Positions 550 through 30,857 of a DNA stretch of 44,368 nt are shown one piece after another. This DNA is from Pseudomonadota bacterium. Lineage in GTDB: Bacteria > Pseudomonadota > Alphaproteobacteria > UBA6615. Both the position numbers and the translations under genes were made by a program. The first letter of the stretch is position 1. Every line of letters starts with the position of its first letter. The notes below the pieces were generated by a model. That model did no database searches. It saw only the letters and a program-made list of their open reading frames with translations, and was not told the DNA's origin. Location of the stretch: positions 1 to 44,368 of the forward strand of contig JAQCFD010000002.1 of the NCBI GenBank assembly GCA_027618305.1, read 5' to 3'.

Positions 550-624
550 GCGGGAATAGCTCAGTGGTAGAGCATCACGTTGCCAACGTGAGGGTCGCGA
601 GTTCGAATCTCGTTTCCCGCTCCA
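550..624 (+). tRNA. tRNA-Gly (anticodon GCC), CCA encoded
   Basis: GCGGGAATAGCTCAGTGGTAGAGCATCACGTTGCCAACGTGAGGGTCGCGAGTTCGAATCTCGTTTCCCGCTCCA folds as a 75-nt cloverleaf. Acceptor GCGGGAA/TTCCCGC, anticodon stem TCACG/CGTGA with loop TTGCCAA (anticodon GCC), T-arm GCGAG-TTCGAAT-CTCGT. Near-identical in outline to enterobacterial tRNA-Gly(GCC). Confidence 0.95.
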
Positions 625-711: not shown

Positions 712-1026
712 ATGTCCGACGATCATATCGACGACGCGCGGGTTGAGGCGGCATTCAAGTCCGTTACCGCCGCGCGGGCGAGCGCCTGGAGCATGTCGAT
801 CGACGAGGTCGCGGCACTGGCCGAGCGGGTGCGTATGGAGATCATGCTGGAGCGGGGGATGCGCAAGTCCCGCAAGCGCTGGTACCGCGCCTATGCGGAC
901 TTCCTCGACGATGTGGTCGAGGAACGCCTGGAGAAAGACGGACGCAGCGCGGATGCCTTCCATTCGGCCGTGGTGGACTACGTACGCGGCATGCTGAGCG
1001 ATTCGGAGAAATCCGACGACCAATAG
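712..1026 (+). CDS. Hypothetical small acidic protein (104 aa)
   Basis: ORF with a good SD (GGGAGG, 8 nt upstream of the ATG). GC-rich third positions. No recognisable family. Convergent with the HTTM gene (21-nt gap). Confidence 0.55.
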   Translation: MSDDHIDDARVEAAFKSVTAARASAWSMSIDEVAALAERVRMEIMLERGMRKSRKRWYRAYADFLDDVVEERLEKDGRSADAFHSAVVDYVRGMLSDSEKSDDQ

Positions 1027-1047
1027 TGGTGCCGCCCGGCGGGAGGT

Positions 1048-2859
1048 TCAGGTGAAACACTCATGGACCCAGACGCGGCGGATTTCGAACCGCCTGGGCT
1101 GGCCGGGAGGTCCCGTCCATTCGACGGGAAACAGAATCTCGAAATGTATGAGTTCCTGTCCGGCGGGGGCATCCTCGTTCCAGCGGCGGCACAGATAGCG
1201 TCCATAGTCGAGCGCGAAGTCGACCGCATCAGAATTGTAGCTTTGGTCCTCGATATTCGAGAGGTATTTGCGCCAGCGATAATTTTCGTAGGCATGGGAC
1301 ACGATGCGCGGCTTTACCAGCGACGGTGCGCCGACGGTCCCGTTGTAGGCATCGACCGGGGTGCCGTCGCGCAGGACGCCCGGCATCACGGGCCAGGGAC
1401 TGGTGATCTCCGGGTGGGGCGCGAACATGGTCCAGTTCTGATAGAGGTTCAGCGCCTGGCGCGTGGCGATGAAGGAATCGCCGTGACGCCATGACAGGGC
1501 CGGCAGGGTCGACAGATTCTGTACAAAGACGAAGCCCATGAAGGCGAGAGCGAGTGTCTGGCCGGCGAGGTTCGGTTTCACGCGCACGGGGCGGAACGGC
1601 AAGGCCCTGGCGGTCAGGCCACTCAGCCGGCCGCGGTTTCGCGCGACCAGGCCATAGAGCCGATCGCCGTGCCGCCGCATGGCGATGAGGCCGGCGAGCC
1701 AGAAGAAGATGGGCGATGCGGTCACCACCGCGTGCATCGCCGCCCAGCGCACATGATTGAGGCCATGCCCGTCGTGGACCACCCAGCTGTCATGTTCCTG
1801 CATGAGCGCGTGGATCTCCGGGCGCGTCTGGGCCGGCAGGATCGGGACATCGTTGAGAATCAGGAAGGACTTCAGGAGCCGGCAAATCTTGAAGCAGAAA
1901 TCGCAGTCGCGGTCATAGTAGATCACCATGCCGATGACCGACGGGCGGCGCAGGCGCGCGCCGAGCCAGTCCCAGACCCATCCCTGGGTGAAGGTCAGAT
2001 TCATGAGGATGCTGATGAAGGGAAACAGGCCGATCTGCAGAAACAGGAAGAAGCCGAAATGCATCGACATGAAGGCGAGCTGCAGCACCGCACGCAGCGG
2101 CCGGAGCAGGAGCGGCGAGAAGATCAGAATCGGGCCGATCAGCTCGAGCCCCCAGACATAGAATGTCAGCCCCTGCAGCAGCGTCTCGAATTGCCGGAAC
2201 CAAAGCGCCAGCGGTGTGACGAGATAATCGAGCTGGAGGGCAAAATAGACGGCGGTGCCGTCCGGCACCCAGCGGGCATCGGACTTCAGGAGCGCACTGA
2301 ACAGGTACATGGACATGCCCTGAATGAGGAGTGCGGCGCTGGCGATCGACACGAAATGGTTGGGGTGTGTGTCCGACGCATTGTCGAGGGCGGCGTCGAC
2401 GGAGTAGCGCGCGCCGATGGGCAGGAACATTGCCCAGAACAACAGCAGGACCAGCAGATTGTCTTCGCCTGACAGGATCATCGGGTTGCGCATCTGAAGC
2501 AAGACCAGCATCACCCAGCTCAGGACCGTCATGAGCCGTGTGCGGTAGCCGACCAGCAGCAGCAGGGCGAGCAGGCCGGCCAGCAAAAACAACAGGGCCT
2601 GGAACCAGGCGGCACCGTTCATAAGGTGGAGCGAGAACGACGCGGGATGCATGAAGCCGTCGATGACGGCGCGGGGCATGATGCCGAAATCTGTGTAGTG
2701 CGCCCGCAGATCGCGGGCCCGCAAGACAAGGTCGGCGAGGATCATCACCGCCAGCCCGATCCTGAGCAGGGCGAGTGTGCGCAGGTCGATCGCGAAAATT
2801 TCGCGGATGCCGGCCCATCGCCAAACGGAAGCAGAATTCTGATCGCTGGCTGACGTCAT
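1048..2859 (-). CDS. HTTM-domain (vitamin K-dependent gamma-carboxylase-like) polytopic membrane protein with an embedded DCC/DUF393-type thiol-disulfide oxidoreductase domain
   Basis: The N-terminus IREIFAIDLRTLALLRIGLAVMILADLVLRARDLRAHYTDFGIMPR, followed by many TM helices, is the classical HTTM start. The central YYDRDCDFCFKICRLL carries the D-x-x-C-x-x-C signature of the DCC family. The C-terminal part (NLYQNWTMFAPHP...) continues the HTTM-type extracytoplasmic region. Confidence 0.8.
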   Translation of the reverse strand: MTSASDQNSASVWRWAGIREIFAIDLRTLALLRIGLAVMILADLVLRARDLRAHYTDFGIMPRAVIDGFMHPASFSLHLMNGAAWFQALLFLLAGLLALLLLVGYRTRLMTVLSWVMLVLLQMRNPMILSGEDNLLVLLLFWAMFLPIGARYSVDAALDNASDTHPNHFVSIASAALLIQGMSMYLFSALLKSDARWVPDGTAVYFALQLDYLVTPLALWFRQFETLLQGLTFYVWGLELIGPILIFSPLLLRPLRAVLQLAFMSMHFGFFLFLQIGLFPFISILMNLTFTQGWVWDWLGARLRRPSVIGMVIYYDRDCDFCFKICRLLKSFLILNDVPILPAQTRPEIHALMQEHDSWVVHDGHGLNHVRWAAMHAVVTASPIFFWLAGLIAMRRHGDRLYGLVARNRGRLSGLTARALPFRPVRVKPNLAGQTLALAFMGFVFVQNLSTLPALSWRHGDSFIATRQALNLYQNWTMFAPHPEITSPWPVMPGVLRDGTPVDAYNGTVGAPSLVKPRIVSHAYENYRWRKYLSNIEDQSYNSDAVDFALDYGRYLCRRWNEDAPAGQELIHFEILFPVEWTGPPGQPRRFEIRRVWVHECFT

Positions 2860-2949
2860 GATCGCTCTCGTTGTCGGGGTTCGAGGTGAACCCGCAGCGG
2901 GGACATGACCTTAGCGCAAATTCGTTAACGGCAACCTGCCGCGCCTGCC

Positions 2950-5277
2950 TCAGGAGGCGAAGATCACGGCCGCGTTGTCGTCGTCCTCGGATTCCACCGG
3001 TGCGCAGACGCGGGATTTCGGGAAGGCGATCTGGACGCGGGTGCCGACGCCGACATTGCTGGTGATGGCCAACTCGCCCTCATGGGCCTCGACGAAGGTC
3101 TTGACCAGGGACAAGCCCAGGCCCGTGCCGTCATGAGAGCGGGCGAGGGTCCCGTCGACCTGATAGAAGGCCTCGGTCAGGCGCGGGATCGCGTCTTCGG
3201 GAATGCCGATGCCGTTGTCGGCGACCTCGACGACGAGCGCGCCGTCATCGCGCAGGAACCCGCGCAGCGTGACCATGCCGGTATGGTCTTCCGTGAACTT
3301 GAACGAATTCGACAGCAGGTTGAGGGCGACCTGGCGCACGAGACGCTGATCGCCAACGAGCCATGGCAGGTCTTGTGATATCTCTACCGAGAGGCGGCGT
3401 GGCTGTTTCTGCTGCCAGCCCTGGGCGATCCGAATGCAGGCACCCAGCGCATCGGCGAAATCGAAAGGCTCGTCGTTGAGCTCGAACGACCCGGTCTCGA
3501 TCCGGGAGATGTCCAGGATGTCGTTGATGACCGACAGCAAATGATTGCCGCTATCGTGGATCACCCCGCTATATTCGAGGTAGTCCTCATTCTCCATGGG
3601 GCCGAAGGCTTCGTCCTTCATGAGCTCGGAGAAGCCAATCACGGCATTGAGTGGGGTACGGAGTTCGTGGCTCATATTTGCCAGGAATTCTGTTTTGGCC
3701 CGGTTGGCCGATTCCGCACTCTCCTTGGCGGCGATCAGATCGGCCTCGGCACGCTTGCGATTGGTGATGTCGCGGATGGTGTAGGTGTAGATGGGGCGTT
3801 CGCGGGCGGCGCGACGCTGGCCGCTGACCGCCTCGGGGACGGACGACCGGCTGACACTGATTTCCACGGGCACGCGGGTGCGCGCGTCTCCCGCCTTTAT
3901 CAACTCGAGTTCCAGGGGCGCGATCAGGAGCGGTCCGGGTGACTCGTCACCGGCCTCGACCGATTCGCGGACCGGCTGGCTCGCGCCCGAGATGATCTCG
4001 TCAATATGATAAGTCTTTGCGTCCCGCCGTCGGACTCCGGAAATCATGGCCGCCGCCGTGTTGAAGACCTCGATCTGGCCCTCCTCGTCAGTGATCACGA
4101 TGCCGTCGAAGCTGTCCGAAATCACCCGGTCGAGCATCTTGCCGCGGCGGCCCATGACCAAACGCTGCTGGAAGATTGTGACCGCCTGGCGTTCGATATC
4201 CTTGAAGAGTTCGAAGGCGAAGCAGAAAAGGGCGACGCCGGAGGCCCCCGCGGACTCGAGCGCGATGGCACCCTCGTGCAGGGCGAGCAAGGCCGCGATC
4301 TGCCCGATGGTCAGGAAGACGACGACGGCGGCGGCACGGATGATCCAGTGCCGCCGGGTGATGAGCGACCAGATGGCTGCCAGCACGATGATGCCGAGCA
4401 TGGCCAGCACATTGCCGGCGGCAACGATGCCGCGATTCTGGGTGATGGTTTCAAAGGCGAGGGCCTGCAGCATCGGCCCGTCGATCACGCCATAGACCGG
4501 CGCGGCGAACTGATCGCCGAGTTCGAGCGCGGTGGCCCCGACCACGACATACTTTCCCTCGAACGTCCCCGGCGCAACGTTGCCGGCGAGCAAGTCCACG
4601 ACCGATATGCGCGGTATCGTGTCCGGGCGAATGCCATAATCGATGGTGATATCCGTCGGGCCGCCCCCGGTCAGGCCGGCGAGCGCGAAGGGCAGAGACG
4701 GTACGAAACGTTCGTCGATCTTCGTGCCGGCGCGATAGGTGCGGATGAACGTGTCGGTGCCGGGGAAGACGTTAACCAGCCCCAGGTCGACATGTTCCCG
4801 GAATATCTCGATGGGTGCATTGAAGGTCAGGGTCTCCGCGCCGTCCGGGTGTCGGATGACCTGCTGAAGGGCGGCGAGGACCACGTGCCCGCTTACTCGG
4901 TCCAGCGCCGCGGCAAAGGACCGATCTTCGACGTCTGTCGACCTTGAGCTGAAATCGATATCGAAGGCGATCCGTTCGGCGCCGTCGGCGACCAGCCGGT
5001 CCACCAATGCGCCATGGATCGAGCGCGGCCAGGGCCAGACATCGATCGCCCGGAGGCTGCGGGTGTCGATATCCACCAAGATGACCTCTCCCGTGGCCGG
5101 GCGGCCATCGACCTTGTTTCGCAGGTCCTGCAGCGCGTTGTCGATCGGGGTCAGCCAGCCGAACGCCTGCATGGCGCAGAAGGCGAGCCCGATCAACAAA
5201 TATGGCGCGTGTCGTTTCATCGATACCTTCGATTCTCCAAGCGCGTGTCCTTTCCTGGAAACGCGTGTCCGCCGCAC
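2950..5277 (-). CDS. CHASE2-domain sensor histidine kinase (CHASE2 - TM bundle - PAS - HisKA - HATPase_c), no receiver domain
   Basis: Periplasmic CHASE2-like N-terminal third after a signal-anchor (MKRHAPYLLIGLAFCAMQAF), then a hydrophobic block around aa 290-370 and a PAS-like region. H-box FLANMSHELRTPLNAVIGFSELM, N-box NLLSNSFKFT, G-boxes DNGIGI and GTGLGLS. The true start is probably the internal ATG at 5220 (GAAGG SD upstream) rather than 5277. Confidence 0.9.
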   Translation of the reverse strand: MRRTRVSRKGHALGESKVSMKRHAPYLLIGLAFCAMQAFGWLTPIDNALQDLRNKVDGRPATGEVILVDIDTRSLRAIDVWPWPRSIHGALVDRLVADGAERIAFDIDFSSRSTDVEDRSFAAALDRVSGHVVLAALQQVIRHPDGAETLTFNAPIEIFREHVDLGLVNVFPGTDTFIRTYRAGTKIDERFVPSLPFALAGLTGGGPTDITIDYGIRPDTIPRISVVDLLAGNVAPGTFEGKYVVVGATALELGDQFAAPVYGVIDGPMLQALAFETITQNRGIVAAGNVLAMLGIIVLAAIWSLITRRHWIIRAAAVVVFLTIGQIAALLALHEGAIALESAGASGVALFCFAFELFKDIERQAVTIFQQRLVMGRRGKMLDRVISDSFDGIVITDEEGQIEVFNTAAAMISGVRRRDAKTYHIDEIISGASQPVRESVEAGDESPGPLLIAPLELELIKAGDARTRVPVEISVSRSSVPEAVSGQRRAARERPIYTYTIRDITNRKRAEADLIAAKESAESANRAKTEFLANMSHELRTPLNAVIGFSELMKDEAFGPMENEDYLEYSGVIHDSGNHLLSVINDILDISRIETGSFELNDEPFDFADALGACIRIAQGWQQKQPRRLSVEISQDLPWLVGDQRLVRQVALNLLSNSFKFTEDHTGMVTLRGFLRDDGALVVEVADNGIGIPEDAIPRLTEAFYQVDGTLARSHDGTGLGLSLVKTFVEAHEGELAITSNVGVGTRVQIAFPKSRVCAPVESEDDDNAAVIFAS

Positions 5278-5316
5278 CCGGGGGCACGGCGGACATCGAG
5301 TTAAGCACCTATTTCT

Positions 5317-6303
5317 TTAGTTTCCGTTGCCATTCCCATTTCCGTTGCCATTCCCGTTACCGCCGCCGTTACCGCCGCCGTTACCGCCGCCGTTACCTGT
5401 GGCCTGGGCGACGAGCGTGCCGACGGGCACGTTGGTGACACCGGGCGCGGAGCCGTTGCCGCCAGAGTTGACCTTGGCACCAGCATTTCCGTTGCCGCGG
5501 CTATTTCCCTTGCCGGCGGACTTGCCGGGTGCGGTCGCCAGACCGTTGGTTGCGGATGCGACGTTCAGGTTGAGGTTACCCAGGGCCTTGCCGATCTTCG
5601 GCCCGCGCGCCGCAGCGGCGTTGCCGCGCGAACCCGGTGCTGCCTTGGTGTCGTCCGACTTGGCTGCCGGGCCCTCGACGTTTGCCTTGTCGGCCTTGCC
5701 GGACGGCGCGGCGCCGACACCGGTGACCTTAAGCGCGGCACCGGAATCTTTGCCGCGCGTCGCGGTCTGTCCCGGGCGGATCAGCTGGACCTGCTGGCCT
5801 GCCAGATCGGCGACCTGCACCGCACCCTCGACCACATGCACGGCCGCGCCCTGTTGGCCGACACTGACCGTAAAGGTCGTGCCTTTCACGACGGCGGCCA
5901 TATAAGGCGTCTGCACTTCAAAATGCTGGTTGGGCTGCTTGTCCACCTTCAGGAGAATGGTCCCGAGGTTCTGCAGGATGCGTGTGCTGTAGGGCCCGGT
6001 GTTTTCGGCCGGCAAACCCATCTCGCTCGACGGCGAAACGGTGATCCGCTCCGCCCCGCGCGCGATGACAACGCGGCCGTCGGTACCTGTCGTGATGCGG
6101 TCGCCCGCGTCAATCACGGTGCCCGCCGCCGCCGCCTGGGCGCCCTTCTCCTGATCCACGAAACGGGCGTCGCCCGTGACCTCCTGGATTTTCCATGGTG
6201 TATCCGCCGATGCGGCCATGGCCTGACCGCCGAATGCGGCGGTCATCATGACGGCCGCCGCCGCGCCGGAAAATACTTGTCTGATCGTCGTACTGTTAAA
6301 CAT
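5317..6303 (-). CDS. Secreted FecR-domain protein with a long Ala/Gly/Lys/Asn-rich tail ending in a (GNGG)3(GN)7 repeat
   Basis: Sec-type signal peptide (MFNSTTIRQVFSGAAAAVMMTAAFGGQAMAASA). FecR-fold blocks ITTGTDGRVVIARGAERITV and FEVQTPYMAAVVKGTTFTV. The last ~130 aa are low complexity. Sits 40-97 nt upstream of, and co-directional with, the CHASE2 kinase gene. Confidence 0.85.
   Translation of the reverse strand: MFNSTTIRQVFSGAAAAVMMTAAFGGQAMAASADTPWKIQEVTGDARFVDQEKGAQAAAAGTVIDAGDRITTGTDGRVVIARGAERITVSPSSEMGLPAENTGPYSTRILQNLGTILLKVDKQPNQHFEVQTPYMAAVVKGTTFTVSVGQQGAAVHVVEGAVQVADLAGQQVQLIRPGQTATRGKDSGAALKVTGVGAAPSGKADKANVEGPAAKSDDTKAAPGSRGNAAAARGPKIGKALGNLNLNVASATNGLATAPGKSAGKGNSRGNGNAGAKVNSGGNGSAPGVTNVPVGTLVAQATGNGGGNGGGNGGGNGNGNGNGNGNGN
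5320..5397 (-). repeat. In-frame tandem micro-repeats encoding the C-terminal Gly-Asn tail
   Basis: The + strand shows GTTACCGCCGCC three times (5356-5391) plus a partial fourth unit. These are preceded by alternating 6-nt units GTTGCC/ATTCCC/ATTTCC (5320-5355). Confidence 0.9.
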
Positions 6304-6545
6304 AGCTACCTGCCTTTCGGTCTCCCCGCTTTTGGACCGTCCTGATCCGCGATACGGGACGACTTGGTTGTTTGCGTTGTGATGAAAATAGTTCCGATAA
6401 AAAATGTTAGCAATTTCAATCGTTTACAAATTATTCGAAACTTTCCACGAATTTTAGAGATCGCGAAAAGTCATTGGTTGGTTAAGTACTTCCGGGGTAT
6501 CAAGGCACCGCAACCACTTGCCGGGCAATAATCGTTCGAAATTTC
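6304..6545. promoter_or_regulatory. AT-rich divergent control region between the FecR-domain gene and the ShlB-type gene
   Basis: A clearly AT-rich stretch (e.g. GATGAAAATAGTTCCGATAAAAAATGTTAGCAATTTCAATCGTTTACAAATTATTCGAAAC) in an otherwise GC-rich window. The palindromic hexamer TTCGAA occurs at 6434, 6535 and 6555. Confidence 0.4.
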
Positions 6546-8288
6546 ATGCGAGACTTCGAAGTTCATTTTTCTGCTTTTCGACGGATTACCAACGGATGGC
6601 GCAACCCCCGTGCGGTGCCCGCCGGGGCGCTGGCGCTTGCCTTGGCTTTCGTCGTCTGGGTGTCGCCGGTGGCTGCGCAGACGACGGGCGCGAGCACCGA
6701 CGCCGGCCAGATCGAGCGGCGCATCGACGATGCGGCCCCACCGCCCAGGCGCGAACCCGAGCGAGGCGCGGAACTACCGGATCTCCCGACCGAGGCGGGT
6801 GATGATGAAATAGAGTTCATCCTCGCCGCCGTTTCCCTGCTGGGCGTGGAGACCCTGAGCGCCGAAGCGCTCGCCTCGACCTATGAAGACCTCCTCGCCC
6901 GGACCGTGACCACGGCGGATGCGGCGGAGATCGCCAACCGGATCACCCGGATCTACCGCGACGCGGGCTATGCCCTGTCGCGTGCCTTCGTGCCGCCGCA
7001 GACCATCGATACCGGGGTCCTGACGGTCCAGGTCGCGGAAGGTTCGGTGATCGAGGTGGTGTTCGAGGGCCTCGAGGAGATGCCTCTCGATCTCGAACCC
7101 TATGCGCGTGCGATCCGGGACGAACGGCCGCTGACCCTCGACACGCTTGAGCGCAACATTCTGCTGATCGGCGATCTGCCGGGGATCGATGTTGCCCGGT
7201 CGAGCCTCGACGAGGCCGAGGAAGGGTCGGGCGCGTTCCGTCTGACCCTGGTCATCGAATATGACGCGGTCGACGGGACGGCCTATGTCGACAATCGGGG
7301 CACGCCGTCGGTGGGGCGGCTCCAGAGCTGGCTCAGCGGGGGCGCGAATTCATTGTTCGGGCAGGGCGAGCGTCTGCAGGCCGGGCTGTTTACGGTTCCC
7401 AACCAGCCCGAGGAGCTTCTTTACAAGGAGGTCAGCTATCTCCAGCCGCTCGGCAGCGCGGGCACCGAGGCGTTGTTGTCGGCCTCCCACAGCGTGATCG
7501 ATGCGGGCAGCAGTTCCGGAGAGCTCAACACCGAGAGCGAATCCTACCGGTTTTCGCTGCGGCTCAGCCATCCGATCATCCGCAGCCGCACCGAGAATCT
7601 CTGGATCAATGGATTCGCGGAATACCGCAATGCGGAGGAGTCCCAGTCGGGGGCGGAAAATTTTGACGACCGGCTGCGCGTGGTTCGCGCCCGCCTGAAT
7701 TACAACCGATCCGGCGAAACATTCTTTTCGTCGGCGGTATTGCGGGTGAGTCAGGGGCTCGACGTGTTGGGCGCGTCGGAGGAGCGGTCCGGCCCGCTGT
7801 CGCGGTTCGACGGCGCGCCGAAATTCACCAAAGTCAGTGCCGATTTATCCCACGCCCAGTCGATTTATGGGGGCCTCTCGGTACAGGTCTCGGCCATCGG
7901 CCAGAAATCGGCCAACTCGCTCCTGGCCTCCGAAGAGTTTGCGATCGGCGGCAGCCGCTTCGGCAGGGCATATGATTTTGCCGAGCTGACCGGCGAGGAT
8001 GGGGTGGCCGGCTCGCTGGAGCTTCGCTACAGCTTCGAGGATACGGGCGATCTGCTGGAGTCCCTGCAGGTTTTCGGATTCTATGACAACGGCGCCGTAT
8101 GGAACCGAAACGCGACCGACACGTTCCGGCGACATTCTCTTTCGTCGGCCGGGATCGGTGTGCGTGTGAATCTTCCGCGGTCGATTTTCATCGGCCTCGA
8201 GGCCGCGAAGCCCCTCACGCGCCAGGTGGCCACCTCGGGCGGCAACACGGACCCGCGCTACTTCTTCTCCCTGTCCGTCGGTTTCTGA
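6546..8288 (+). CDS. ShlB/FhaC/HecB-family (TpsB-type) outer-membrane transporter with POTRA domains
   Basis: Signal peptide (ALALALAFVVWVSPVAAQT). ShlB-type POTRA block (IANRITRIYRDAGYALSRAFVPPQTIDTGVLTVQVAEGSVIEVVFEG). Beta-barrel-like C-terminal half ending in the OMP-typical terminal Phe (SLSVGF). Confidence 0.85.
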   Translation: MRDFEVHFSAFRRITNGWRNPRAVPAGALALALAFVVWVSPVAAQTTGASTDAGQIERRIDDAAPPPRREPERGAELPDLPTEAGDDEIEFILAAVSLLGVETLSAEALASTYEDLLARTVTTADAAEIANRITRIYRDAGYALSRAFVPPQTIDTGVLTVQVAEGSVIEVVFEGLEEMPLDLEPYARAIRDERPLTLDTLERNILLIGDLPGIDVARSSLDEAEEGSGAFRLTLVIEYDAVDGTAYVDNRGTPSVGRLQSWLSGGANSLFGQGERLQAGLFTVPNQPEELLYKEVSYLQPLGSAGTEALLSASHSVIDAGSSSGELNTESESYRFSLRLSHPIIRSRTENLWINGFAEYRNAEESQSGAENFDDRLRVVRARLNYNRSGETFFSSAVLRVSQGLDVLGASEERSGPLSRFDGAPKFTKVSADLSHAQSIYGGLSVQVSAIGQKSANSLLASEEFAIGGSRFGRAYDFAELTGEDGVAGSLELRYSFEDTGDLLESLQVFGFYDNGAVWNRNATDTFRRHSLSSAGIGVRVNLPRSIFIGLEAAKPLTRQVATSGGNTDPRYFFSLSVGF

Positions 8289-8298
8289 TCGACCCGCG

Positions 8299-8327
8299 CG
8301 GTTTGCCGTCCTGCGTCCGGCAAACCG
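8299..8327 (+). terminator. 10-bp hairpin after the ShlB-type gene
   Basis: CGGTTTGCCG (8299-8308) pairs with CGGCAAACCG (8318-8327). No clear T-tract. A second hairpin GCTTGCC-tgcg-GGCAAGC lies at 8370-8387. Confidence 0.4.
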
Positions 8328-8454
8328 GCACGCGCATGAATATGGAACGAAATTAAATCGCACAGGGGTGCTTGCCTGCGGGCAAGCGAACTCCCTACGC
8401 TAGCTGGTCCGAACCCTGTCTGGGCCACAGCCGTTGCGCGCGAAGGAGGCAACC

Positions 8455-9204
8455 ATGCCGTATTATGAAAATGGTGATGTTCGTATCCGTTACGAGGAGG
8501 CCGGGAGCGGCTTCCCGCTGCTGGTCACCCCGGGCGGCGGTCTCAACTCGCGTATCGCCAACTGGCCGACCGCGGTCTTCAACGCGATGGACGCCTTCAA
8601 GGACGATTTTCGCTGCATCACCATGGATCAGCGCAACGCCAATGGCGGCGAGAGTTCAGGGCCGATCGCGCTCGACGATCCCTGGGGCGCCTTCGCCGAC
8701 GATCAGCTTGGGCTGATGGACCATCTGGGCATCCGCGAATTCGCCTATATGGGCTACTGCATCGGCGGCTGCTTCGCCGGAACACTGCTCAAGCGCGCCC
8801 CGGATCGCGTTGTCGCGGCGGTGTTCTGCCAGACGGTGGGGCACCGCCCCGATGACCCCGATGTCATGTACCGGTCCGGACGGGATGTGTGGGCCCCCGA
8901 GCTGCTTGACCGGCGGCCGGACCTGAACCAGGACATGATCGACAAGTATCTGCACGGCCTCTACCGGGTGAACCCCGACTTTCTCTACAGCGTGTCGCGC
9001 GACGTTATCCGCGATTGCCAGACGCCGATCCTGGTGCTGCCGGACGACGTACCGTCCCACCCGCTCCAGACATCGATCGATGTCGCCGCGCTGGCGCCGA
9101 ACGCCGAGATCACGGTCTTTCCCTGGACCGAGCCGCCCGAACTGAAAGAGCGCACCATCGGCCGGGTGCGCAGATTCATCCAGACGCACGCCGCAGGGCG
9201 GTAG
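8455..9204 (+). CDS. Alpha/beta-fold hydrolase with a Cys in the nucleophile elbow (G-Y-C-I-G-G)
   Basis: MPYYENGDVRIRYEEAGSGFPLLVTPGGG... is typical of the alpha/beta hydrolase fold. Nucleophile elbow is MGYCIGGCFAG. Strong SD GAAGGAGG 5 nt before the ATG at 8455, so the track start 8434 (TTG) is an extension. Confidence 0.8.
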   Translation: MPYYENGDVRIRYEEAGSGFPLLVTPGGGLNSRIANWPTAVFNAMDAFKDDFRCITMDQRNANGGESSGPIALDDPWGAFADDQLGLMDHLGIREFAYMGYCIGGCFAGTLLKRAPDRVVAAVFCQTVGHRPDDPDVMYRSGRDVWAPELLDRRPDLNQDMIDKYLHGLYRVNPDFLYSVSRDVIRDCQTPILVLPDDVPSHPLQTSIDVAALAPNAEITVFPWTEPPELKERTIGRVRRFIQTHAAGR

Positions 9205-9890: not shown

Positions 9891-10850
9891 ATGAACATGT
9901 TTCGCACAATGATGGTCGGGGCCGCGGCGCTCGGCCTTGCCGCGGCGGCCACGCCCGCCCAGGCCTTTCCCGACGGGCCGGTCGAGTTCGTCATTCCGTT
10001 CGGCGCCGGCGGCGGCGCGGACATCGAGGGCCGGCTTCTGGCCAAGAAGATGGGCGAGATTCTCGGCGTGCCCTTCACGCCGGTGAACCGTCCCGGCGGC
10101 GGCGGTGCCGTGACCTACACCTACATCAAGAACTCCAAGCCCGATGGACATACGGTGGGGTGGAACTCCACCTCGGTTCTGACGACGACCAATCTCGGCA
10201 ACACGGACTTCGCCTACGACGCGATGGACCATGTCGGCCGGGTTGAGTTCCAGCCCCAGCCCTTCGTCGTCAAGGGCGACGCGAAATGGAACACGTTTGC
10301 GGAGTTTGTCGCCGACTGTAAGGCCGCGCCGGGCACGCTGAAGGTTGCCAATTCCGGCACCGGCAGCGCCACCCACGCCGCCGCCATCCTGCTGATGGAT
10401 GCGGCCGGCTGCAAGGTCGTGCACCTGCCCAAGGGCATTGCGGGCCGCAACAAGTCGGTCCTGAACGGCGAGGCCGATGCGATGATCGCGCCGCTCACGG
10501 GTACCGTGAACCTGACCAATGCCGGAAAGCTGAAGATCCTGCTGATGCCGACGGCCGAGCGCAGCACGGTCTTCCCGGACGTGCCGACCGCCAAGGAAGC
10601 GGGATACGACGTCTCGCTGGATCTGTTCCGCGGCCTTTCGGTGGCTCCGAACACGCCGGACGACATCAAGGCCAAGCTGGCCGATGCGATGACCAAGGCG
10701 GCCAACTCGCCGGAATTCCTGAAGCTCGCCAAGGACAACGGCTTCACCGTGGCCCCGATGGACCACAAGGCGTTCGAGGCGATGCTCGTCGAAGAGAATG
10801 CGAAGGTGAAGGCCATTTTCGCGAGCGCTGGCCTGCTGAAGACCCAGTAA
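9891..10850 (+). CDS. tctC: Tripartite tricarboxylate transporter substrate-binding protein (Bug/TctC family)
   Basis: Signal peptide MNMFRTMMVGAAALGLAAAATPAQA, then FPDGPVEFVIPFGAGGGADIEGR and the rest of a Bug-family fold. Followed by tctB and tctA. Confidence 0.9.
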   Translation: MNMFRTMMVGAAALGLAAAATPAQAFPDGPVEFVIPFGAGGGADIEGRLLAKKMGEILGVPFTPVNRPGGGGAVTYTYIKNSKPDGHTVGWNSTSVLTTTNLGNTDFAYDAMDHVGRVEFQPQPFVVKGDAKWNTFAEFVADCKAAPGTLKVANSGTGSATHAAAILLMDAAGCKVVHLPKGIAGRNKSVLNGEADAMIAPLTGTVNLTNAGKLKILLMPTAERSTVFPDVPTAKEAGYDVSLDLFRGLSVAPNTPDDIKAKLADAMTKAANSPEFLKLAKDNGFTVAPMDHKAFEAMLVEENAKVKAIFASAGLLKTQ

Positions 10851-10856
10851 CCGTGT

Positions 10857-10890
10857 CGCCATGGGCCTGTCTTCGGGCGGGCCCATGGCG
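10857..10890 (+). terminator. Strong intercistronic hairpin between tctC and tctB (attenuator/partial terminator)
   Basis: CGCCATGGGCC (10857-10867) pairs perfectly with GGCCCATGGCG (10880-10890): an 11-bp stem with a 12-nt loop. Confidence 0.5.
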
Positions 10891-10941
10891 GACGCACCGG
10901 GCGTGTTCCGGCCCGTCCCATTCATTCTAGGTGCGATTGTC

Positions 10942-11400
10942 ATGCGACGCCGAAACATCATCGCCGCCGTGGTTCTGCTCGCGCTGGGCGCCGTTTACGG
11001 CGTCCTGACGGCGCAGTTGCCGGTGCGCAGCCTGCCCGACACGCCGGGGCCGCCCTTCTTTCCCTGGATCAACACGATCGTGATTCTCGCCCTTTCGGCC
11101 ACGCTGCTGGTGCAGGGATGGATGGCCGCGGACGGGCCGCTGCCGCCGCAGGCCGCCGGGCGCCGGCGGGCGAGCTGGGCGCTGGGCGTGTTTGTCGTCT
11201 ACCTGGCGATCCTGCCGGGCTTCGGGTTCATCCTCGCGACCGCGCCGTTCTTCGCGGCGCTGATGCTGCTGTTCGGCGAGACGCGGGCGCTGCGCGTCGC
11301 GGCGGGGGCGCTCATCGCGACGGGCCTCCTCTACCTCCTGTTCCGGCACGGATTCAATGTGTATCTGCCGACCGGGCTGCTGAAGGGCATCGTGCCTTGA
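10942..11400 (+). CDS. tctB: Tripartite tricarboxylate transporter small membrane subunit TctB
   Basis: About 150 aa with 4 TM helices (MRRRNIIAAVVLLALGAVYGVLTAQLP...), located between tctC and tctA. The track start 10861 overlaps the hairpin and is probably an extension. Confidence 0.8.
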   Translation: MRRRNIIAAVVLLALGAVYGVLTAQLPVRSLPDTPGPPFFPWINTIVILALSATLLVQGWMAADGPLPPQAAGRRRASWALGVFVVYLAILPGFGFILATAPFFAALMLLFGETRALRVAAGALIATGLLYLLFRHGFNVYLPTGLLKGIVP

Positions 11401-11413
11401 CCGGGACCGAGAC

Positions 11414-12925
11414 ATGAGCCCGGACGTCCTCGCAGGCATCTCCCAGGCGTCGGGATTTCTCGTCCTGCTGACGACGGCGGTGGGCGTGTTCATCGGCCTG
11501 ACCGTCGGCATGATTCCGGGCATGACGATCAGCACCGGCATCATCATCCTGCTGCCGGTGACGTTTGTCCTGTCGGCGGATATTTCCATCGCCTTGCTGC
11601 TGGGTCTCTATGTGGGCGGGATGACCGGTGGCAGTTTCTCGGCCATTCTGCTGAATATTCCGGGCACGCCATCGGCGTCGGCCACGGCGCTCGACGGCTA
11701 TCCCATGTCGGCGCGTGGCGAGGCGGGCCGTGCGCTGGGCATCGCCATCACCTCGAGCTTTATCGGCGGCATGGCAAGCTTCTTCTGCCTGCTGTTCATC
11801 GCACCGCTGCTGGCCGAGGTCGCGCTGAGCTTCCGCACCGAGGACATGTTCGCGCTCGTTTTCTTCGGCATCACAATCATCTGCAGCTTCGCCGCCCAGT
11901 CGCTCGTGAAGGGGTTGTTGTCGGGCGCCATCGGCCTGGCCATCGTCACCATCGGCCAGGACCCGGTGATGGGCACCCAGCGGTTCACCTTCGGCCAGGT
12001 CAACCTGATCGGCGGCATTCACTTCCTGACCGCCATGATCGGGTTGTTCGCAATCCCCCAGCTGGTGAGCAACCTGATGGACGCGGCGGGCGGGGCACAA
12101 CGCATCCAGACCAGGCTGAAGTCGGTGCTGCCGCGGATGTCGGATCTGCGCGCCATCCGCATGCCGGTCACGATCGGTTCCCTCACCGGTGCCTTTCTCG
12201 GCATTCTGCCGGGCGCGGGCGGGCCCATCGCGGCCTTCATCAGCTATGACTACGCGCGCCGCCTCTCCAGGCGCCGGGGCGAGTTCGGGAAGGGCGCGGT
12301 CGAGGGCATCGCGGCGCCGGAATCGGCGAACAACGCGGTCACCGGCGGGGCGCTCATCCCGATGATGACGCTGGGTATTCCCGGCGATCCCGTGACGGCG
12401 ATCCTGATCGGCGCGCTCATCATTCACGGCCTGGCCCCGGGCCCGCTGATGTTTACCGAGCGGGGCGACTTCGCGTTCGGCCTTATCTTCTCCTTCTTCT
12501 GGGCGAATATTTTCAATCTCCTCATTGCGCTGACCGCCCTGCGGGTGCTGGTCAAACTGCTGGCGACGCCGCGCGCGCTTCTGATGCCGACGGTGGCGGT
12601 TTTGTGCGTGATCGGTGCCTTCGCGCTGCGCAACAATTTCTTCGACGTCTATGTGATGCTGTTCTTCGGCTTCGTCGGCCTGGCCATGCGCTGGCTGGAC
12701 ATGCCCGTGGTGCCCCTGCTGCTGGCCCTCGTGCTCGGCGTGCCGCTCGAGGAAAACCTCCGGGTGGCGCTGACGTCCTCCCAGGGCGATATCTCGATCT
12801 TCTTTTCCTCGCCAATCGCTGTGACCTTCCTCGCGCTGTCGGCGCTGTCCATCATCTGGTCGCTGCGCGCGGCCCGGCTCCGGAAGAACGCGGCGCCGCC
12901 ATCCCCCAAGGAGAGTTCATCATGA
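11414..12925 (+). CDS. tctA: Tripartite tricarboxylate transporter large permease TctA
   Basis: 503-aa polytopic protein with TctA-typical blocks (GMIPGMT, GGSFSAILLNIPGTPSASATALDGYPM, LGIPGDPVTA). Confidence 0.9.
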   Translation: MSPDVLAGISQASGFLVLLTTAVGVFIGLTVGMIPGMTISTGIIILLPVTFVLSADISIALLLGLYVGGMTGGSFSAILLNIPGTPSASATALDGYPMSARGEAGRALGIAITSSFIGGMASFFCLLFIAPLLAEVALSFRTEDMFALVFFGITIICSFAAQSLVKGLLSGAIGLAIVTIGQDPVMGTQRFTFGQVNLIGGIHFLTAMIGLFAIPQLVSNLMDAAGGAQRIQTRLKSVLPRMSDLRAIRMPVTIGSLTGAFLGILPGAGGPIAAFISYDYARRLSRRRGEFGKGAVEGIAAPESANNAVTGGALIPMMTLGIPGDPVTAILIGALIIHGLAPGPLMFTERGDFAFGLIFSFFWANIFNLLIALTALRVLVKLLATPRALLMPTVAVLCVIGAFALRNNFFDVYVMLFFGFVGLAMRWLDMPVVPLLLALVLGVPLEENLRVALTSSQGDISIFFSSPIAVTFLALSALSIIWSLRAARLRKNAAPPSPKESSS

Positions 12926-15360: not shown

Positions 15361-15657
15361 ATGATGTTTGAACTCTACCGCACGGTCATGGATTCCGACC
15401 GCAACCCGCTCAACAATCTGCCGCGCGCGCAGCGCTTCCAAATCATGGTTGTGCTCAGCCTGATGTGGACCACGATCTTCTGCACCGCCGCCGGGGCATG
15501 GTTTTGGTATGGAGAGCTGCTCTTCGCGCATGTACTGGTCGCTTTGGGCGTCGCCTTGACGGGCGCGACGTTCCACACGGCCGCGAAACAGTCGACCTAT
15601 CGCGACCACCCGAAGTCAGACGGCACGGCGCGTTACGACGACGTCTGGGGCGCTTGA
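15361..15657 (+). CDS. Small two-TM membrane protein, paralog 2 (98 aa), unknown family
   Basis: MMFELYRTVMDSDRNPLNNLPRAQRFQIMVVLSLMWTTIFCTAAGAWFWYGELLFAHVLVALGVALTGATFHTAAKQSTYRDHPKSDGTARYDDVWGA. SD AAAGGAGA upstream. The stop TGA overlaps the TTG start of the photolyase gene. Confidence 0.7.
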   Translation: MMFELYRTVMDSDRNPLNNLPRAQRFQIMVVLSLMWTTIFCTAAGAWFWYGELLFAHVLVALGVALTGATFHTAAKQSTYRDHPKSDGTARYDDVWGA

Positions 15658-17195: not shown

Positions 17196-17231
17196 GGACC
17201 ACAGGGGAAGAAGGCGTATGGCGCGAATCAC

Positions 17232-17963
17232 ATGCTGAAAAGTTTCGGATCCGGTTTGAACGTTGCGGTGGCCGGTGCGACCGGCGGTATCGGGGCTGCG
17301 CTCTGCGCGCGGTTCGCGGAGATGCCATCGGTCGATCGTCTGTTCACGCTGTCCCGCGATCCCGGGCCGGAAGCCAGGGATCTGTATCTCGACCTGACTG
17401 ATGAGGCATCGATCGCCGCAGCAGGGGACACCATCCGGTCCCGCGCGGGCACGCTTCACCTGGTTATCGCGGCCACCGGTACCCTGCATGACGGTGGCGA
17501 TTTCCAGCCCGAGAAAAGCTGGCGCGCACTTGATCCGGAGAATCTTGCGCATGCGTTTCGCGTGAATGCGACAGGGCCAGCTCTCTTCGCCAAGCATTTT
17601 CTGCCGTTGCTGGCGCGAGACCGCAAGGCGGCGTTCGCCGCCCTGTCGGCCCGGGTGGGCAGCATTTCCGACAACGCGCTCGGGGGCTGGTACGCCTACC
17701 GCGCTTCCAAGGCGGCGCTCAACATGCTGATCCGCAGCCTGTCGATCGAGCTTGCGCGCCGCAGCCCGCAGGCGTTGTGCGTGGGCCTGCACCCCGGGAC
17801 GGTGGACACGCCGCTGTCGGTCCCGTTTCGTGGCGCGGTGCCGGATGGCCAACTGTTCTCGCCGGACCATGCCGCGGTCTGCCTGTTGGATGTGCTGGAC
17901 GGATTGAGCCCGTTGGATACAGGCGGTGTGTTCGACTGGGCCGGGCAGTCTGTTCCGGCCTGA
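17232..17963 (+). CDS. Short-chain dehydrogenase/reductase (C-factor-like SDR)
   Basis: VAGATGGIGAAL cofactor motif and YRASKAALN catalytic motif; 243 aa. Confidence 0.85.
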   Translation: MLKSFGSGLNVAVAGATGGIGAALCARFAEMPSVDRLFTLSRDPGPEARDLYLDLTDEASIAAAGDTIRSRAGTLHLVIAATGTLHDGGDFQPEKSWRALDPENLAHAFRVNATGPALFAKHFLPLLARDRKAAFAALSARVGSISDNALGGWYAYRASKAALNMLIRSLSIELARRSPQALCVGLHPGTVDTPLSVPFRGAVPDGQLFSPDHAAVCLLDVLDGLSPLDTGGVFDWAGQSVPA

Positions 17964-17982
17964 CCCTATTGCCGATTTGCGG

Positions 17983-18009
17983 CAATCCATTCGCCGCCGC
18001 GGCACGTAT
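17983..18009 (+). promoter_or_regulatory. Degenerate copy of the bipartite motif (CAATCC-N16-CGTAT) upstream of rpoH-like gene
   Basis: CAATCC at 17983-17988, 16-nt spacer, CGTAT at 18005-18009. Lies 38 nt before the ATG at 18047. Preceded by hairpin ATTGCCG-atttg-CGGCAAT (17968-17986) directly after the SDR stop. Confidence 0.3.
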
Positions 18010-30836: not shown

Positions 30837-30857
30837 GATCCGTATCTCCGCGCGGCG

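What the first reader, a model, noticed from the sequence alone, without database searches (positions are those of the whole stretch)
2950..8288. CHASE2 sensor kinase + secreted FecR-domain protein + ShlB/FhaC-type outer-membrane transporter, with none of the usual partners
Seen in sequence:
- A FecR-domain gene (5317..6303) lies immediately upstream of, and co-directional with, a CHASE2 histidine kinase (2950..5277).
- A ShlB/FhaC-type POTRA transporter (6546..8288) is transcribed divergently across an AT-rich region.

Established knowledge:
- TpsB transporters normally sit next to a large TpsA exoprotein carrying a TPS domain.
- FecR proteins normally are inner-membrane anti-sigma factors paired with an ECF sigma and a TonB-dependent receptor.
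- Histidine kinases normally pair with a response regulator.
- The ligand of CHASE2 domains is generally unknown.

None of these partners is present here:
- The FecR-like protein has a cleavable-looking signal peptide instead of an N-terminal anti-sigma domain, and it ends in an about 130-aa low-complexity tail.
- The kinase has no receiver domain.
- No response regulator gene occurs anywhere in the 44 kb.

Inference: the FecR-domain protein may be the cargo or periplasmic partner of the POTRA transporter. It may also be the co-sensor feeding the periplasmic CHASE2 domain. That would make this an envelope or surface signalling module that, to my knowledge, is uncharacterised. The HTTM-DCC gene 90 nt downstream of the kinase may belong to the same transcript.
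Basis: partly seen in the sequence, partly recalled or inferred. Interest (0 to 1): 0.7.

Follow-up and report, generated by a model that had tools for sequence, protein, structure and literature searches.

The report
TpsB barrel–FecR–CHASE2 envelope sensing module
Three neighbouring genes (an outer-membrane transporter-type barrel, a secreted FecR-fold protein and an inner-membrane CHASE2 sensor kinase) form a unit conserved across many alphaproteobacteria; it most likely relays signals across the cell envelope, and this barrel-containing form has not been described in the literature I could search.

Summary
The window encodes a CHASE2-PAS-HisKA-HATPase kinase, a signal-peptide FecR-fold protein with a disordered G/N-rich tail, and a divergently transcribed TpsB (ShlB/FhaC)-type barrel. 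There is no TPS exoprotein, ECF sigma factor, TonB-dependent transducer or receiver domain in the 44 kb.

The adjacency is not chance. Of 66 species-representative genomes with enough flanking sequence, 64 have the divergent barrel gene, 59 have the downstream CHASE2 gene, 63 have all three, and none has a TPS domain. The three proteins are inherited together (distance-matrix r = 0.91-0.96). The CHASE2 receptor's output switches between histidine kinase and (PAS-)GGDEF-EAL, so barrel + FecR + CHASE2 is a portable input module.

It is not wholly uncharacterised. FecR-CHASE2 pairing is published (Burkholderia "BiofilmReg"; Campylobacterota). S. meliloti NsrA, required for signal perception by CHASE2 cyclases, is here inferred to be a FecR-TPR-barrel fusion encoded beside cyaK. 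The new element is the TpsB-family barrel, which keeps all transporter motifs.

The HTTM-DCC gene is not part of the module.

Verdict: a new variant of a known kind. The mechanism is inferred, not shown.

The parts
6546..8288 (+). TpsB (ShlB/FhaC/CdiB)-family outer-membrane protein, 580 aa. It comprises a signal peptide (aa 1-44), a candidate N-terminal helix (aa 53-63), two POTRA-like units (aa ~90-226) and a beta-barrel (aa ~227-580).
   Evidence: Pfam POTRA_2 and ShlB. AF2 model: pLDDT 85, pTM 0.78. Best PDB fold matches are CdiB 6wim (TM 0.71/0.76) and FhaC 4ql0/4qky, ahead of TamA and BamA.
7947..7973 (+). L6-loop signature of the barrel: G468-G469...G-R474-A-Y476, the counterpart of the TpsB/Omp85 VRGY/F motif. 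The beta13 motif F512-x-D514-x-G516 follows at 8079-8093.
   Evidence: These residues are nearly invariant in 39 homologues. They are conserved at 90% or more in both FecR-linked and TpsA-linked barrels.
6304..6545 (.). AT-rich divergent intergenic region, presumed to hold the promoters of both transcription units.
   Evidence: GC is 0.44 overall and 0.34 in the core 6370-6500, against 0.64 for the window. The divergent layout is conserved in 64 of 66 loci. No promoter was demonstrated; the only sigma-70-like match (6299-6270, minus strand) lies inside the FecR-like ORF and is at chance level.
5317..6303 (-). Secreted FecR-fold protein, 328 aa.
   Evidence: Pfam FecR. 1660 homologues at E<=1e-3, all carrying PF04773 as their only domain in the top 120. 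Family alignment A1.
6214..6303 (-). Sec-type signal peptide of the FecR-like protein (aa 1-30, cleavage predicted after AMA).
   Evidence: Read directly from the sequence. An N-terminal hydrophobic segment followed by a small-residue motif is conserved across the family. No signal-peptide predictor was run.
5704..6201 (-). All-beta FecR-fold domain (aa 35-200).
   Evidence: pLDDT above 90. Foldseek: FecR-family anti-sigma periplasmic domain 4m0n (E 7e-7), PupR cell-surface-signalling domain 6ovk_R (E 5e-6) and, weakly, RTX-adhesin anchoring domain 5ix9 (E 0.03). Sub-threshold NCBIfam hit to the LapA retention module at residues 38-106.
5539..5595 (-). Short conserved linear motif in the tail (aa 237-255, IGKALGNLNLNVASATNGL; T252 and G254 are at least 90% conserved).
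   Evidence: Alignment A1. A motif HMM scores above shuffled background in 92 of 107 homologues whose locus has the barrel gene, against 1 of 6 that lack it. This comparison is phylogenetically confounded.
5320..5691 (-). Low-complexity G/N/A/S-rich tail (aa 205-328) ending in (GN)n; predicted disordered.
   Evidence: pLDDT below 50. 41% G+N. Tails of 150-350 aa that vary in sequence occur in nearly all homologues.
2950..5277 (-). CHASE2 sensor histidine kinase (maximal ORF 775 aa; probable start ATG 5220, giving 756 aa). Domains: CHASE2 4375-5193, PAS 3847-4107, HisKA 3490-3699, HATPase_c 3013-3354. No receiver domain.
   Evidence: Pfam. H-box SHELRTPL, DNGIGI and GTGLGL motifs are present in the translation. 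Start-site reasoning.

Best explanation
The three genes encode a trans-envelope sensory input module with three parts: a TpsB-family barrel with periplasmic POTRA domains in the outer membrane, a soluble or tethered FecR-fold protein in the periplasm, and a CHASE2 receptor in the inner membrane.

Proposed mechanism, by analogy with FecA-FecR and PupB-PupR cell-surface signalling and with S. meliloti NsrA-CyaK:
1. An event at or beyond the outer membrane is registered by the barrel.
2. It is passed to the FecR-fold protein.
3. That protein changes the state of the periplasmic CHASE2 domain.
4. This changes the autokinase activity of the PAS-HisKA-HATPase portion, which signals to a response regulator encoded elsewhere.

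Shown here: gene content, domain architectures and folds, intact catalytic and transporter motifs, strong conservation and co-inheritance of the triad, and interchangeable outputs.

Inferred: the physical contacts, the direction of signal flow, the nature of the cue, and the identity of the regulator.
For: 1. Conserved synteny. In 66 GTDB species-representative loci with adequate flanks, 64 have the divergent TpsB-type gene, 59 the co-directional CHASE2 gene and 63 all three. Flanking genes differ between loci.
2. Starting from the barrel instead, 31 of 51 relatives again sit divergent to a FecR gene. That context never coincides with a downstream TPS-domain gene.
3. Distance matrices of the three proteins correlate at r = 0.91-0.96 over 85 non-redundant triads.
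4. The same barrel+FecR+CHASE2 input is joined to HisKA/HATPase in some lineages and to (PAS-)GGDEF-EAL in others. This is the behaviour expected of a sensory input module.
5. The FecR-like domain has the fold of the periplasmic signalling domain of FecR/PupR, which contacts an outer-membrane transducer.
6. Experimental precedent: NsrA is an outer-membrane protein required for signal perception by the CHASE2 cyclases CyaK and CyaD1/D2 (PMC7529298, PMC13001267). The gene I assign to NsrA by position and size is signal peptide-FecR-TPR-barrel and lies directly upstream of cyaK.
7. Published FecR-CHASE2 operons exist in Burkholderiales (PMC5192318) and Campylobacterota (PMC9239204).
Against: - No interaction, localisation or phenotype data exist for any TpsB-containing version.
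- Co-inheritance is also what shared vertical descent alone would give.
- FecR-CHASE2 pairs work without an adjacent barrel gene in Rhizobium and Sinorhizobium plasmids, in L088 and in Burkholderia (PMC5192318). The barrel is therefore not universally needed.
- One gammaproteobacterial locus has a barrel and a CHASE2 cyclase without a FecR gene (L113).
- The barrel retains all transporter signatures and has no residues that distinguish it from true TpsBs. That fits a transport role at least as well as a pure signalling role.
- The window's kinase has no identified regulator. Regulators beside homologous modules are of three different types.
Confidence: 0.55

Rival explanations
1. Non-canonical two-partner secretion. 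The FecR-like protein, or at least its disordered tail, is a genuine substrate of the TpsB barrel. It is exported or displayed at the surface without a TPS domain. The CHASE2 kinase regulates or monitors this process, or senses the exported protein as an autocrine or tethered ligand. This partly overlaps with the best explanation: the domain could stay in the periplasm while the tail goes out.
For: - The barrel is a bona fide TpsB by fold (CdiB TM 0.71/0.76, FhaC) and by motifs (L6 R474/Y476; F512xD514xG516).
- It is as similar to TpsA-linked TpsBs (median 34% identity) as to other FecR-linked barrels (median 32%).
- No class-specific residue differences were found.
- The FecR-like protein has the general layout of a TpsA: signal peptide, a conserved N-terminal domain, then a long extended region of variable length.
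- A short conserved motif at the start of the tail is present in 92 of 107 homologues with a barrel gene against 1 of 6 without.
- One barrel-less homologue replaces the tail with a C-terminal TM-like anchor (L088).
Against: - No TPS domain by HMM, and no TPS or beta-helix fold among the PDB matches of the model.
- The FecR gene is operonic with the CHASE2 gene and divergent from the barrel gene, unlike the tpsB-tpsA operons seen in the sister group.
- G/N-rich tails also occur in Rhizobium homologues with no adjacent barrel gene.
- Characterised FecR-fold domains act in the periplasm.
Confidence: 0.3
2. The barrel is an uptake or entry gate, or a surface receptor, for a peptide or protein cue. 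The cue then reaches a periplasmic FecR/CHASE2 complex, as proposed for NsrA and ribosomal protein uL2. The FecR-like protein never touches the barrel.
For: NsrA-dependent perception of a proteinaceous signal by CHASE2 cyclases (PMC7529298). Conserved adjacency of the barrel with FecR and CHASE2. L113 shows a barrel and a CHASE2 cyclase without FecR.
Against: TpsB proteins are known as exporters, and no import function has been described for the family (TPS review PMC5422565). NsrA's barrel is unrelated to TpsB (BLASTP E above 3), so the analogy holds only at the level of architecture.
Confidence: 0.1
3. The adjacency has no functional meaning. The barrel is an orphan TpsB whose TpsA is encoded elsewhere, and FecR-CHASE2 is an independent two-gene sensor.
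For: The rest of the genome is not available, so a distant TpsA cannot be excluded. FecR-CHASE2 pairs exist without a barrel gene.
Against: 64 of 66 loci keep the divergent barrel gene next to the FecR gene across families from Parvibaculaceae to Bradyrhizobium and sphingomonads, despite unrelated flanks. The FecR and TpsA contexts are mutually exclusive. The three proteins are co-inherited.
Confidence: 0.05

Closest known systems
Sinorhizobium meliloti NsrA - CyaK (and CyaD1/D2) plant-signal perception pathway
   Same: A secreted protein with an N-terminal FecR domain is encoded immediately upstream of, and co-directional with, an inner-membrane CHASE2 receptor. An outer-membrane beta-barrel is part of the input. 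NsrA is required for signal perception by the CHASE2 cyclases (PMC7529298, PMC13001267).
   Different: In NsrA the FecR domain, TPR repeats and barrel are one 1190-aa polypeptide, and the barrel is not Omp85/TpsB-type (no similarity to the window's barrel). Here the FecR protein is separate, has a disordered tail instead of TPR repeats, and the barrel is a divergently transcribed TpsB. The output is a histidine kinase, not a cyclase. I assigned the pSymB gene to NsrA by position and size, because the original paper could not be read.
FecA-FecR-FecI / PupB-PupR cell-surface signalling
   Same: A FecR-fold periplasmic domain (Foldseek 6ovk_R E 5e-6, 4m0n E 7e-7) is placed between an outer-membrane barrel protein and an inner-membrane signalling step.
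   Different: No N-terminal anti-sigma domain, no TM helix, no ECF sigma factor and no TonB-dependent transducer with an STN domain. The inner-membrane component is a separate CHASE2 kinase, and the outer-membrane component is a TpsB.
Two-partner (type Vb) secretion: FhaC/FHA, CdiB/CdiA, ShlB/ShlA
   Same: The barrel has the TpsB fold, two POTRA domains and the L6 and beta13 motifs. Its sister group contains classical tpsB-tpsA pairs at about 35% identity.
   Different: No TPS-domain partner at any of about 100 FecR-linked loci. The neighbouring secreted protein has a FecR fold, is small and is transcribed divergently. The module is wired to a signalling receptor.
Burkholderia 'BiofilmReg' operon (RR - LysM/FecR protein - CHASE2 HK - DUF4136) and Campylobacterota CHASE2-cyclase clusters
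   Same: A secreted FecR-domain protein is encoded directly upstream of a CHASE2 receptor (PMC5192318; PMC9239204).
   Different: The Burkholderia operon has a LysM domain, an adjacent CreB-type regulator and no barrel gene. The Campylobacterota clusters are described as having a FecR-domain outer-membrane protein plus a TPR protein and a phosphodiesterase. Neither involves a TpsB.
LapA / MpIBP RTX-adhesin N-terminal retention (anchoring) module
   Same: Weak resemblance of part of the FecR-fold domain: NCBIfam retention_LapA E 5e-5, below its cut-off, and Foldseek 5ix9 E 0.03 over 65 columns. That module plugs an outer-membrane pore from the periplasm while the rest of the chain is outside.
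   Different: The similarity is sub-threshold. LapA uses a TolC-like type I pore, not a TpsB, and is a giant adhesin. This is a lead for the threading idea only.

Membership tests
TpsB transporters (type Vb, ShlB/FhaC/CdiB) | Omp85-type 16-stranded beta-barrel | tested here: met
   AF2 model with pLDDT 85. Best PDB matches are CdiB (TM 0.71/0.76) and FhaC, over about 550-600 aligned columns. Pfam ShlB E 3.4e-24. The strand number was not counted rigorously.
TpsB transporters (type Vb, ShlB/FhaC/CdiB) | Two periplasmic POTRA domains | tested here: met
   Pfam POTRA_2 at 91-166. The model shows two beta-alpha-alpha-beta-type units between residues 90 and 226. Sequence hits to the TpsB4 POTRA (2mhj) and CdiB (6wim).
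TpsB transporters (type Vb, ShlB/FhaC/CdiB) | Conserved L6 tip motif (VRGY/F) and beta13 (F/G)xDxG motif | tested here: met
   G-R474-A-Y476 and F512-Y-D514-N-G516. R474, Y476, F512, D514 and G516 are nearly invariant in 39 homologues and shared with TpsA-linked relatives. V-to-G and G-to-A substitutions in the tetrad are noted.
TpsB transporters (type Vb, ShlB/FhaC/CdiB) | N-terminal plug helix H1 inside the barrel | tested here: inconclusive
   A helix is predicted at residues 53-63, followed by a linker, but with low confidence (pLDDT about 55-67). Its position relative to the pore could not be inspected.
TpsB transporters (type Vb, ShlB/FhaC/CdiB) | Cognate TpsA exoprotein with an N-terminal TPS domain, usually in the same operon | tested here: not met
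   No TPS domain in the window or in any FecR-linked locus. The rest of the genome is not available.
TpsA exoproteins (as a possible identity of the FecR-like protein) | TPS domain / right-handed beta-helix at the N-terminus | tested here: not met
   Pfam finds only FecR. The fold matches FecR/PupR periplasmic domains, and no TPS or beta-helix structure appears among the top PDB matches.
FecR-type transmembrane anti-sigma factors | Periplasmic FecR domain | tested here: met
   Pfam FecR E 1.9e-11. Foldseek 4m0n and 6ovk_R.
FecR-type transmembrane anti-sigma factors | N-terminal cytoplasmic anti-sigma domain followed by a single TM helix | tested here: not met
   The protein begins with a cleavable-type signal peptide, and the FecR fold starts at residue ~35.
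FecR-type transmembrane anti-sigma factors | Adjacent ECF sigma factor and TonB-dependent transducer | tested here: not met
   The only sigma factor in the window is RpoH-like. No TonB-dependent receptor was found among the ORFs scanned.
CHASE2 sensor histidine kinases (two-component systems) | Periplasmic CHASE2 domain between TM segments, plus HisKA with the phospho-acceptor His and HATPase_c with N/G boxes | tested here: met
   Pfam. SHELRTPL, DNGIGI and GTGLGL are in the translation, and hydrophobic segments flank CHASE2.
CHASE2 sensor histidine kinases (two-component systems) | Cognate response regulator (adjacent or fused) | tested here: not met
   No receiver domain in the 44 kb. Only a few homologous HK-type loci have a receiver gene nearby; the three examined are of different types.
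NsrA-type FecR-domain outer-membrane proteins | Signal peptide + FecR domain encoded directly upstream of a CHASE2 receptor | tested here: met
   Window. pSymB gene upstream of cyaK.
NsrA-type FecR-domain outer-membrane proteins | TPR repeats and a C-terminal beta-barrel fused to the FecR domain | tested here: not met
   The window protein is 328 aa with a disordered tail and no TPR or barrel. The separate barrel is unrelated to NsrA's.

The most novel reading that the evidence does not exclude
A large clade of TpsB transporters has been recruited from secretion into signalling. The barrel threads the disordered G/N-rich tail of the FecR-fold protein across the outer membrane, docking it through the short conserved motif at the start of the tail, while the folded FecR domain stays in the periplasm as a stopper. 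This would create a surface-exposed tether. Its binding, cleavage or pulling would be relayed through the FecR domain to the CHASE2 receptor. If true, it would be the first TpsB substrate without a TPS domain, a new mode of trans-envelope signalling, and the first mechanistic handle on what CHASE2 domains sense.
Probability: 0.2. Interest if true: 0.85.

Novelty: new variant of a known kind. Interest (0 to 1): 0.6.

Why it matters
CHASE2 is a widespread sensory domain whose ligand or mechanism remains generally unknown. The only functional handle so far is rhizobial NsrA.

This work shows that in many alphaproteobacteria (Bradyrhizobium, Bosea, Methylobacterium, Parvibaculum, Kiloniellaceae, sphingomonads, Brevundimonas and marine Rhodospirillaceae-like lineages) CHASE2 receptors come with two fixed envelope partners. 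One of them is a fully equipped TpsB transporter with no TpsA.

- For the type V secretion field, this is a sizeable TpsB group whose partner is neither a TPS-domain protein nor operonic.
- For signal transduction, it defines a portable three-protein input module that drives either phosphorelay or c-di-GMP turnover.

Several hosts are genetically tractable, so the module's function can be tested directly.

Tried and rejected
1. The NsrA paper (PMC5952392) is not held, and 'smb20775' returns no paper. I identified NsrA by its position upstream of cyaK and its size.
2. NsrA's barrel as a TpsB homologue: rejected (BLASTP E above 3; Pfam gives only a weak OMP_b-brl_3 hit).
3. The 8-sequence barrel alignment was too divergent for the search for related loci. 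A 4-sequence alignment worked but used a single peptide pattern, so the reverse survey (51 loci) is a biased sample.
4. A clean FecR-linked versus TpsA-linked clade: the split is seen in the NJ tree, but bootstrap support is only 110 of 200.
5. Class-specific residues in the POTRA domains or barrel: none found at the 80%/10% threshold.
6. The tail as a marker of barrel presence: rejected, because G/N-rich tails also occur in barrel-less Rhizobium pairs. Only the short motif correlates with the barrel, and weakly.
7. Profile search of the FecR-like family against PDB sequences: no hit. The relationship to FecR/PupR is seen only by fold and by Pfam.
8. Candidate hidden partners in the window: the 1624-aa ORF is a glutamate dehydrogenase and the sigma factor is RpoH-like.
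9. Promoter and terminator scans of 900-8700 are at chance level.
10. Literature searches for CHASE2 or FecR together with POTRA/ShlB/TpsB/Omp85, and for the COG numbers, found no description of the triad. The two main TpsB surveys do not mention it. Subscription-only literature was not searchable.
11. Prediction of a complex was not possible, because the tool handles single chains only.

Full report
**1. Observation**

Pfam assigns the following:
- 2950..5277(-): CHASE2, PAS_9, HisKA and HATPase_c.
- 5317..6303(-): FecR, residues 68-163.
- 6546..8288(+): POTRA_2 and ShlB.
- 1048..2859(-): HTTM and DCC1-like.

NCBIfam adds nothing specific for the kinase, because all hits fall far below their cut-offs. 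For the FecR-like protein it gives only sub-threshold hits to leptospiral LipL45/Lsa33 and to the LapA retention module.

The 242-bp region between the divergent genes is 44% GC, and 34% in its core, in a 64% GC window.

The FecR-like protein starts with a Sec-type signal peptide (…QAMA|A) and has no Cys for lipidation.

The kinase keeps its H-box, N-box and G-boxes. It probably starts at ATG 5220 rather than GTG 5277.

The window has:
- no receiver domain (with positive controls);
- no TPS domain;
- no ECF sigma factor, since the only sigma gene, at 17777-18916, is RpoH-like;
- no giant exoprotein, since the 1624-aa ORF is an NAD-glutamate dehydrogenase.

**2. Conservation**

Homologues of the FecR-like protein are numerous: 1660 at E<=1e-3 among the candidates scored, and PF04773 is the only domain in the top 120.

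Three homologues at 76%, 50% and 42% identity lie in unrelated flanking contexts. All three show the layout barrel gene <-|-> FecR gene -> CHASE2-HK gene.

I examined the best 80, using HMMs iterated from the window's own domains. Among the 66 loci with enough flanking sequence:
- 64 have a divergent TpsB-type gene within 1.5 kb upstream;
- 59 have a co-directional CHASE2 gene within 3 kb downstream;
- 63 have all three genes;
- none has a TPS domain.

Rearranged versions keep the three genes adjacent (L020, L022, L025, L057).

The taxa include Parvibaculum, Tepidicaulis, Kiloniellaceae, Tistlia, Nisaea, Bradyrhizobium, Bosea, Methylobacterium, Methyloligella, sphingomonads and Brevundimonas. 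The window's closest relatives are marine metagenome contigs and MAGs labelled Rhodospirillaceae.

The HTTM-DCC gene follows the kinase only in the closest relative, so it is not part of the module.

**3. The module is an input device**

Pfam on representative CHASE2 partners shows two output types:
- HisKA/HATPase in the window's lineage, Parvibaculaceae and Kiloniellaceae;
- PAS-GGDEF-EAL or degenerate-GGDEF-EAL in Bradyrhizobium, Bosea, Rhizobium and sphingomonads.

Among 85 non-redundant triads, 16 are of the HK type.

Pairwise distance matrices of the FecR domain, the CHASE2 domain and the barrel correlate at r = 0.91-0.96 (Mantel p<=0.001). This shows co-inheritance as a unit, although shared vertical descent contributes to it.

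**4. The barrel**

The AF2 model (pLDDT 85, pTM 0.78) has an N-terminal helix, two POTRA-like units and a large barrel. Its best PDB matches are CdiB and FhaC, ahead of TamA and BamA.

The L6 motif (G-R474-A-Y476) and the beta13 motif (F512xD514xG516) are nearly invariant.

Starting from the barrel, 51 loci fall into three groups: 31 FecR-divergent, 11 with a TPS-domain gene immediately downstream, and 9 others. The first two contexts never coincide. Annotated plasmids show the same dichotomy: Bosea has EAL<-FecR<-|->ShlB, while Azospirillum and Thalassospira have ShlB->filamentous haemagglutinin.

An NJ tree of 124 barrels separates all 104 FecR-linked from all 12 TpsA-linked sequences by one split, with moderate bootstrap support (110 of 200).

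The window's barrel is no more similar to other FecR-linked barrels (median 32% identity) than to TpsA-linked ones (median 34%). No column is diagnostic of either class. The barrel is therefore a genuine, apparently transport-competent TpsB that lacks the defining partner.

**5. The FecR-like protein**

AF2 gives a confident all-beta domain (residues 35-200) and a low-confidence tail (205-328).

Foldseek finds:
- FecR-family periplasmic domains: 4m0n (E 7e-7) and PupR in complex with its transducer's signalling domain, 6ovk (E 5e-6);
- weakly, an RTX-adhesin anchoring domain, 5ix9.

No TPS-like fold appears.

Low-complexity tails of 150-350 aa occur in nearly all homologues. They are G/N-rich in most lineages and D/K/G-rich in sphingomonads, and they often end in basic residues. 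They also occur in Rhizobium FecR-CHASE2 pairs that have no barrel gene nearby.

A short motif at the start of the tail (window residues 237-255) scores above background in 92 of 107 proteins from barrel-containing loci, against 1 of 6 from barrel-less loci (Fisher p = 6e-4). The exceptions are clade-specific, so the test is confounded by phylogeny.

One barrel-less homologue (L088) ends in a TM-like segment followed by a basic cluster instead of a tail.

**6. What is already known**

- The pairing of a secreted LysM-FecR protein (COG4254) with a CHASE2 kinase is described for Burkholderiales, where disrupting the adjacent regulator abolishes biofilm (PMC5192318).
- In S. meliloti the outer-membrane protein NsrA is required for perception of plant and ribosomal-protein uL2 signals by the CHASE2 cyclases CyaK and CyaD1/D2 (PMC7529298, PMC13001267).
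- I located cyaK on pSymB. The gene immediately upstream encodes a 1190-aa protein made of signal peptide, FecR, TPR repeats and a C-terminal barrel. It matches NsrA by position and by the published size and barrel range. Its barrel is unrelated to the window's TpsB.
- SMc02177, another S. meliloti FecR-domain protein, was reported not to be needed for signal perception (PMC5498481).
- No held paper combines CHASE2 or FecR with POTRA/ShlB/TpsB/Omp85. The Omp85/TpsB survey and the TPS review do not mention such a group.

**7. Interpretation**

The best-supported reading is a three-tier envelope sensing module: a TpsB-type barrel, a periplasmic FecR-fold protein and a CHASE2 receptor. It is architecturally analogous to cell-surface signalling and to NsrA-CyaK, and in the window it feeds a kinase with an unlinked regulator.

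- *Shown:* components, folds, motifs, conservation, co-inheritance and modular outputs.
- *Inferred:* contacts, direction of signal flow and the cue.

The main rival, which partly overlaps, is that the FecR-like protein or its tail is a true TpsB substrate. The barrel's intact transporter signatures and the tail motif keep that alive. The absence of a TPS domain, the divergent gene arrangement and the barrel-less FecR-CHASE2 pairs count against full secretion. Chance adjacency is excluded.

**8. Verdict**

The finding is real, and its central inference (a functional envelope signalling unit) is supported by comparative evidence. It is a new variant of a known kind, namely FecR-domain/CHASE2 envelope signalling, distinguished by a TpsB-family outer-membrane component with no TpsA. 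Interest is moderate to high. The mechanism needs experiments.

Noticed in passing
window 7739-7826 (+): ARAGORN calls an 88-nt 'tRNA-Pro(TGG)' inside the TpsB-type ORF. Rfam's tRNA model does not report it at gathering threshold, so it is probably a false positive.
   Followed up: partly
window 550-624 (+): A genuine tRNA-Gly(GCC), found by both ARAGORN and Rfam (73 bits), lies just beyond the HTTM-DCC gene.
   Followed up: yes
window 2950-5277 (-): The kinase ORF as listed starts at GTG 5277. An ATG at 5220 with a GAAGG Shine-Dalgarno-like sequence upstream gives 756 aa, the same length as the homologue in L004, and is the more likely start.
   Followed up: partly
window 9891-12925 (+) and 29295-32481 (-): There are two separate tripartite tricarboxylate transporter (TctC/TctB/TctA-type) loci in one 44-kb window. 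The first is syntenic with the TARA relative L004.
   Followed up: no
window 34864-39738 (+): A 1624-aa large NAD-specific glutamate dehydrogenase with the full set of ACT and helical-motif domains. It is unrelated to the finding but is the only giant ORF in the window.
   Followed up: yes
window 15633-18029 (-): A 798-aa ORF with no Pfam hit lies antisense to a DPRP (photolyase-related) gene at 15465-17195 and to the RpoH-like gene. It is probably a spurious high-GC antisense ORF.
   Followed up: no
L113 3333-7497 (Gammaproteobacteria MAG DATJFK010000013.1): A CHASE2-adenylate cyclase gene is directly divergent from a TpsB-type gene with no FecR gene between them. A KAP-family NTPase gene lies convergent just downstream. 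This is a possible two-component version of the module.
   Followed up: partly
L021 6575-8540 and L049 8094-9888: Two tandem FecR-like genes lie between the barrel gene and the CHASE2 gene (duplication of the middle component). The second L049 copy has a short, non-G/N tail.
   Followed up: no
L088 8082-8900: A FecR-like protein with no barrel gene nearby ends in a hydrophobic TM-like stretch followed by KRRRQKQKQK instead of a G/N tail. The FecR domain appears to be anchored to the inner membrane here.
   Followed up: partly
L094 282-3680 and L138 133-5301: TpsB relatives from the TpsA-side of the tree sit directly downstream of Beta_helix/NosD-type proteins that my TPS model did not detect. 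These are possibly atypical cargo. L094 also has a DegP-like protease gene downstream.
   Followed up: partly
L009 6447-7948 (Sinorhizobium sp. B11 plasmid p2): Here a single-domain response regulator gene precedes the FecR-CHASE2(GGDEF) pair, and no barrel gene is present.
   Followed up: no
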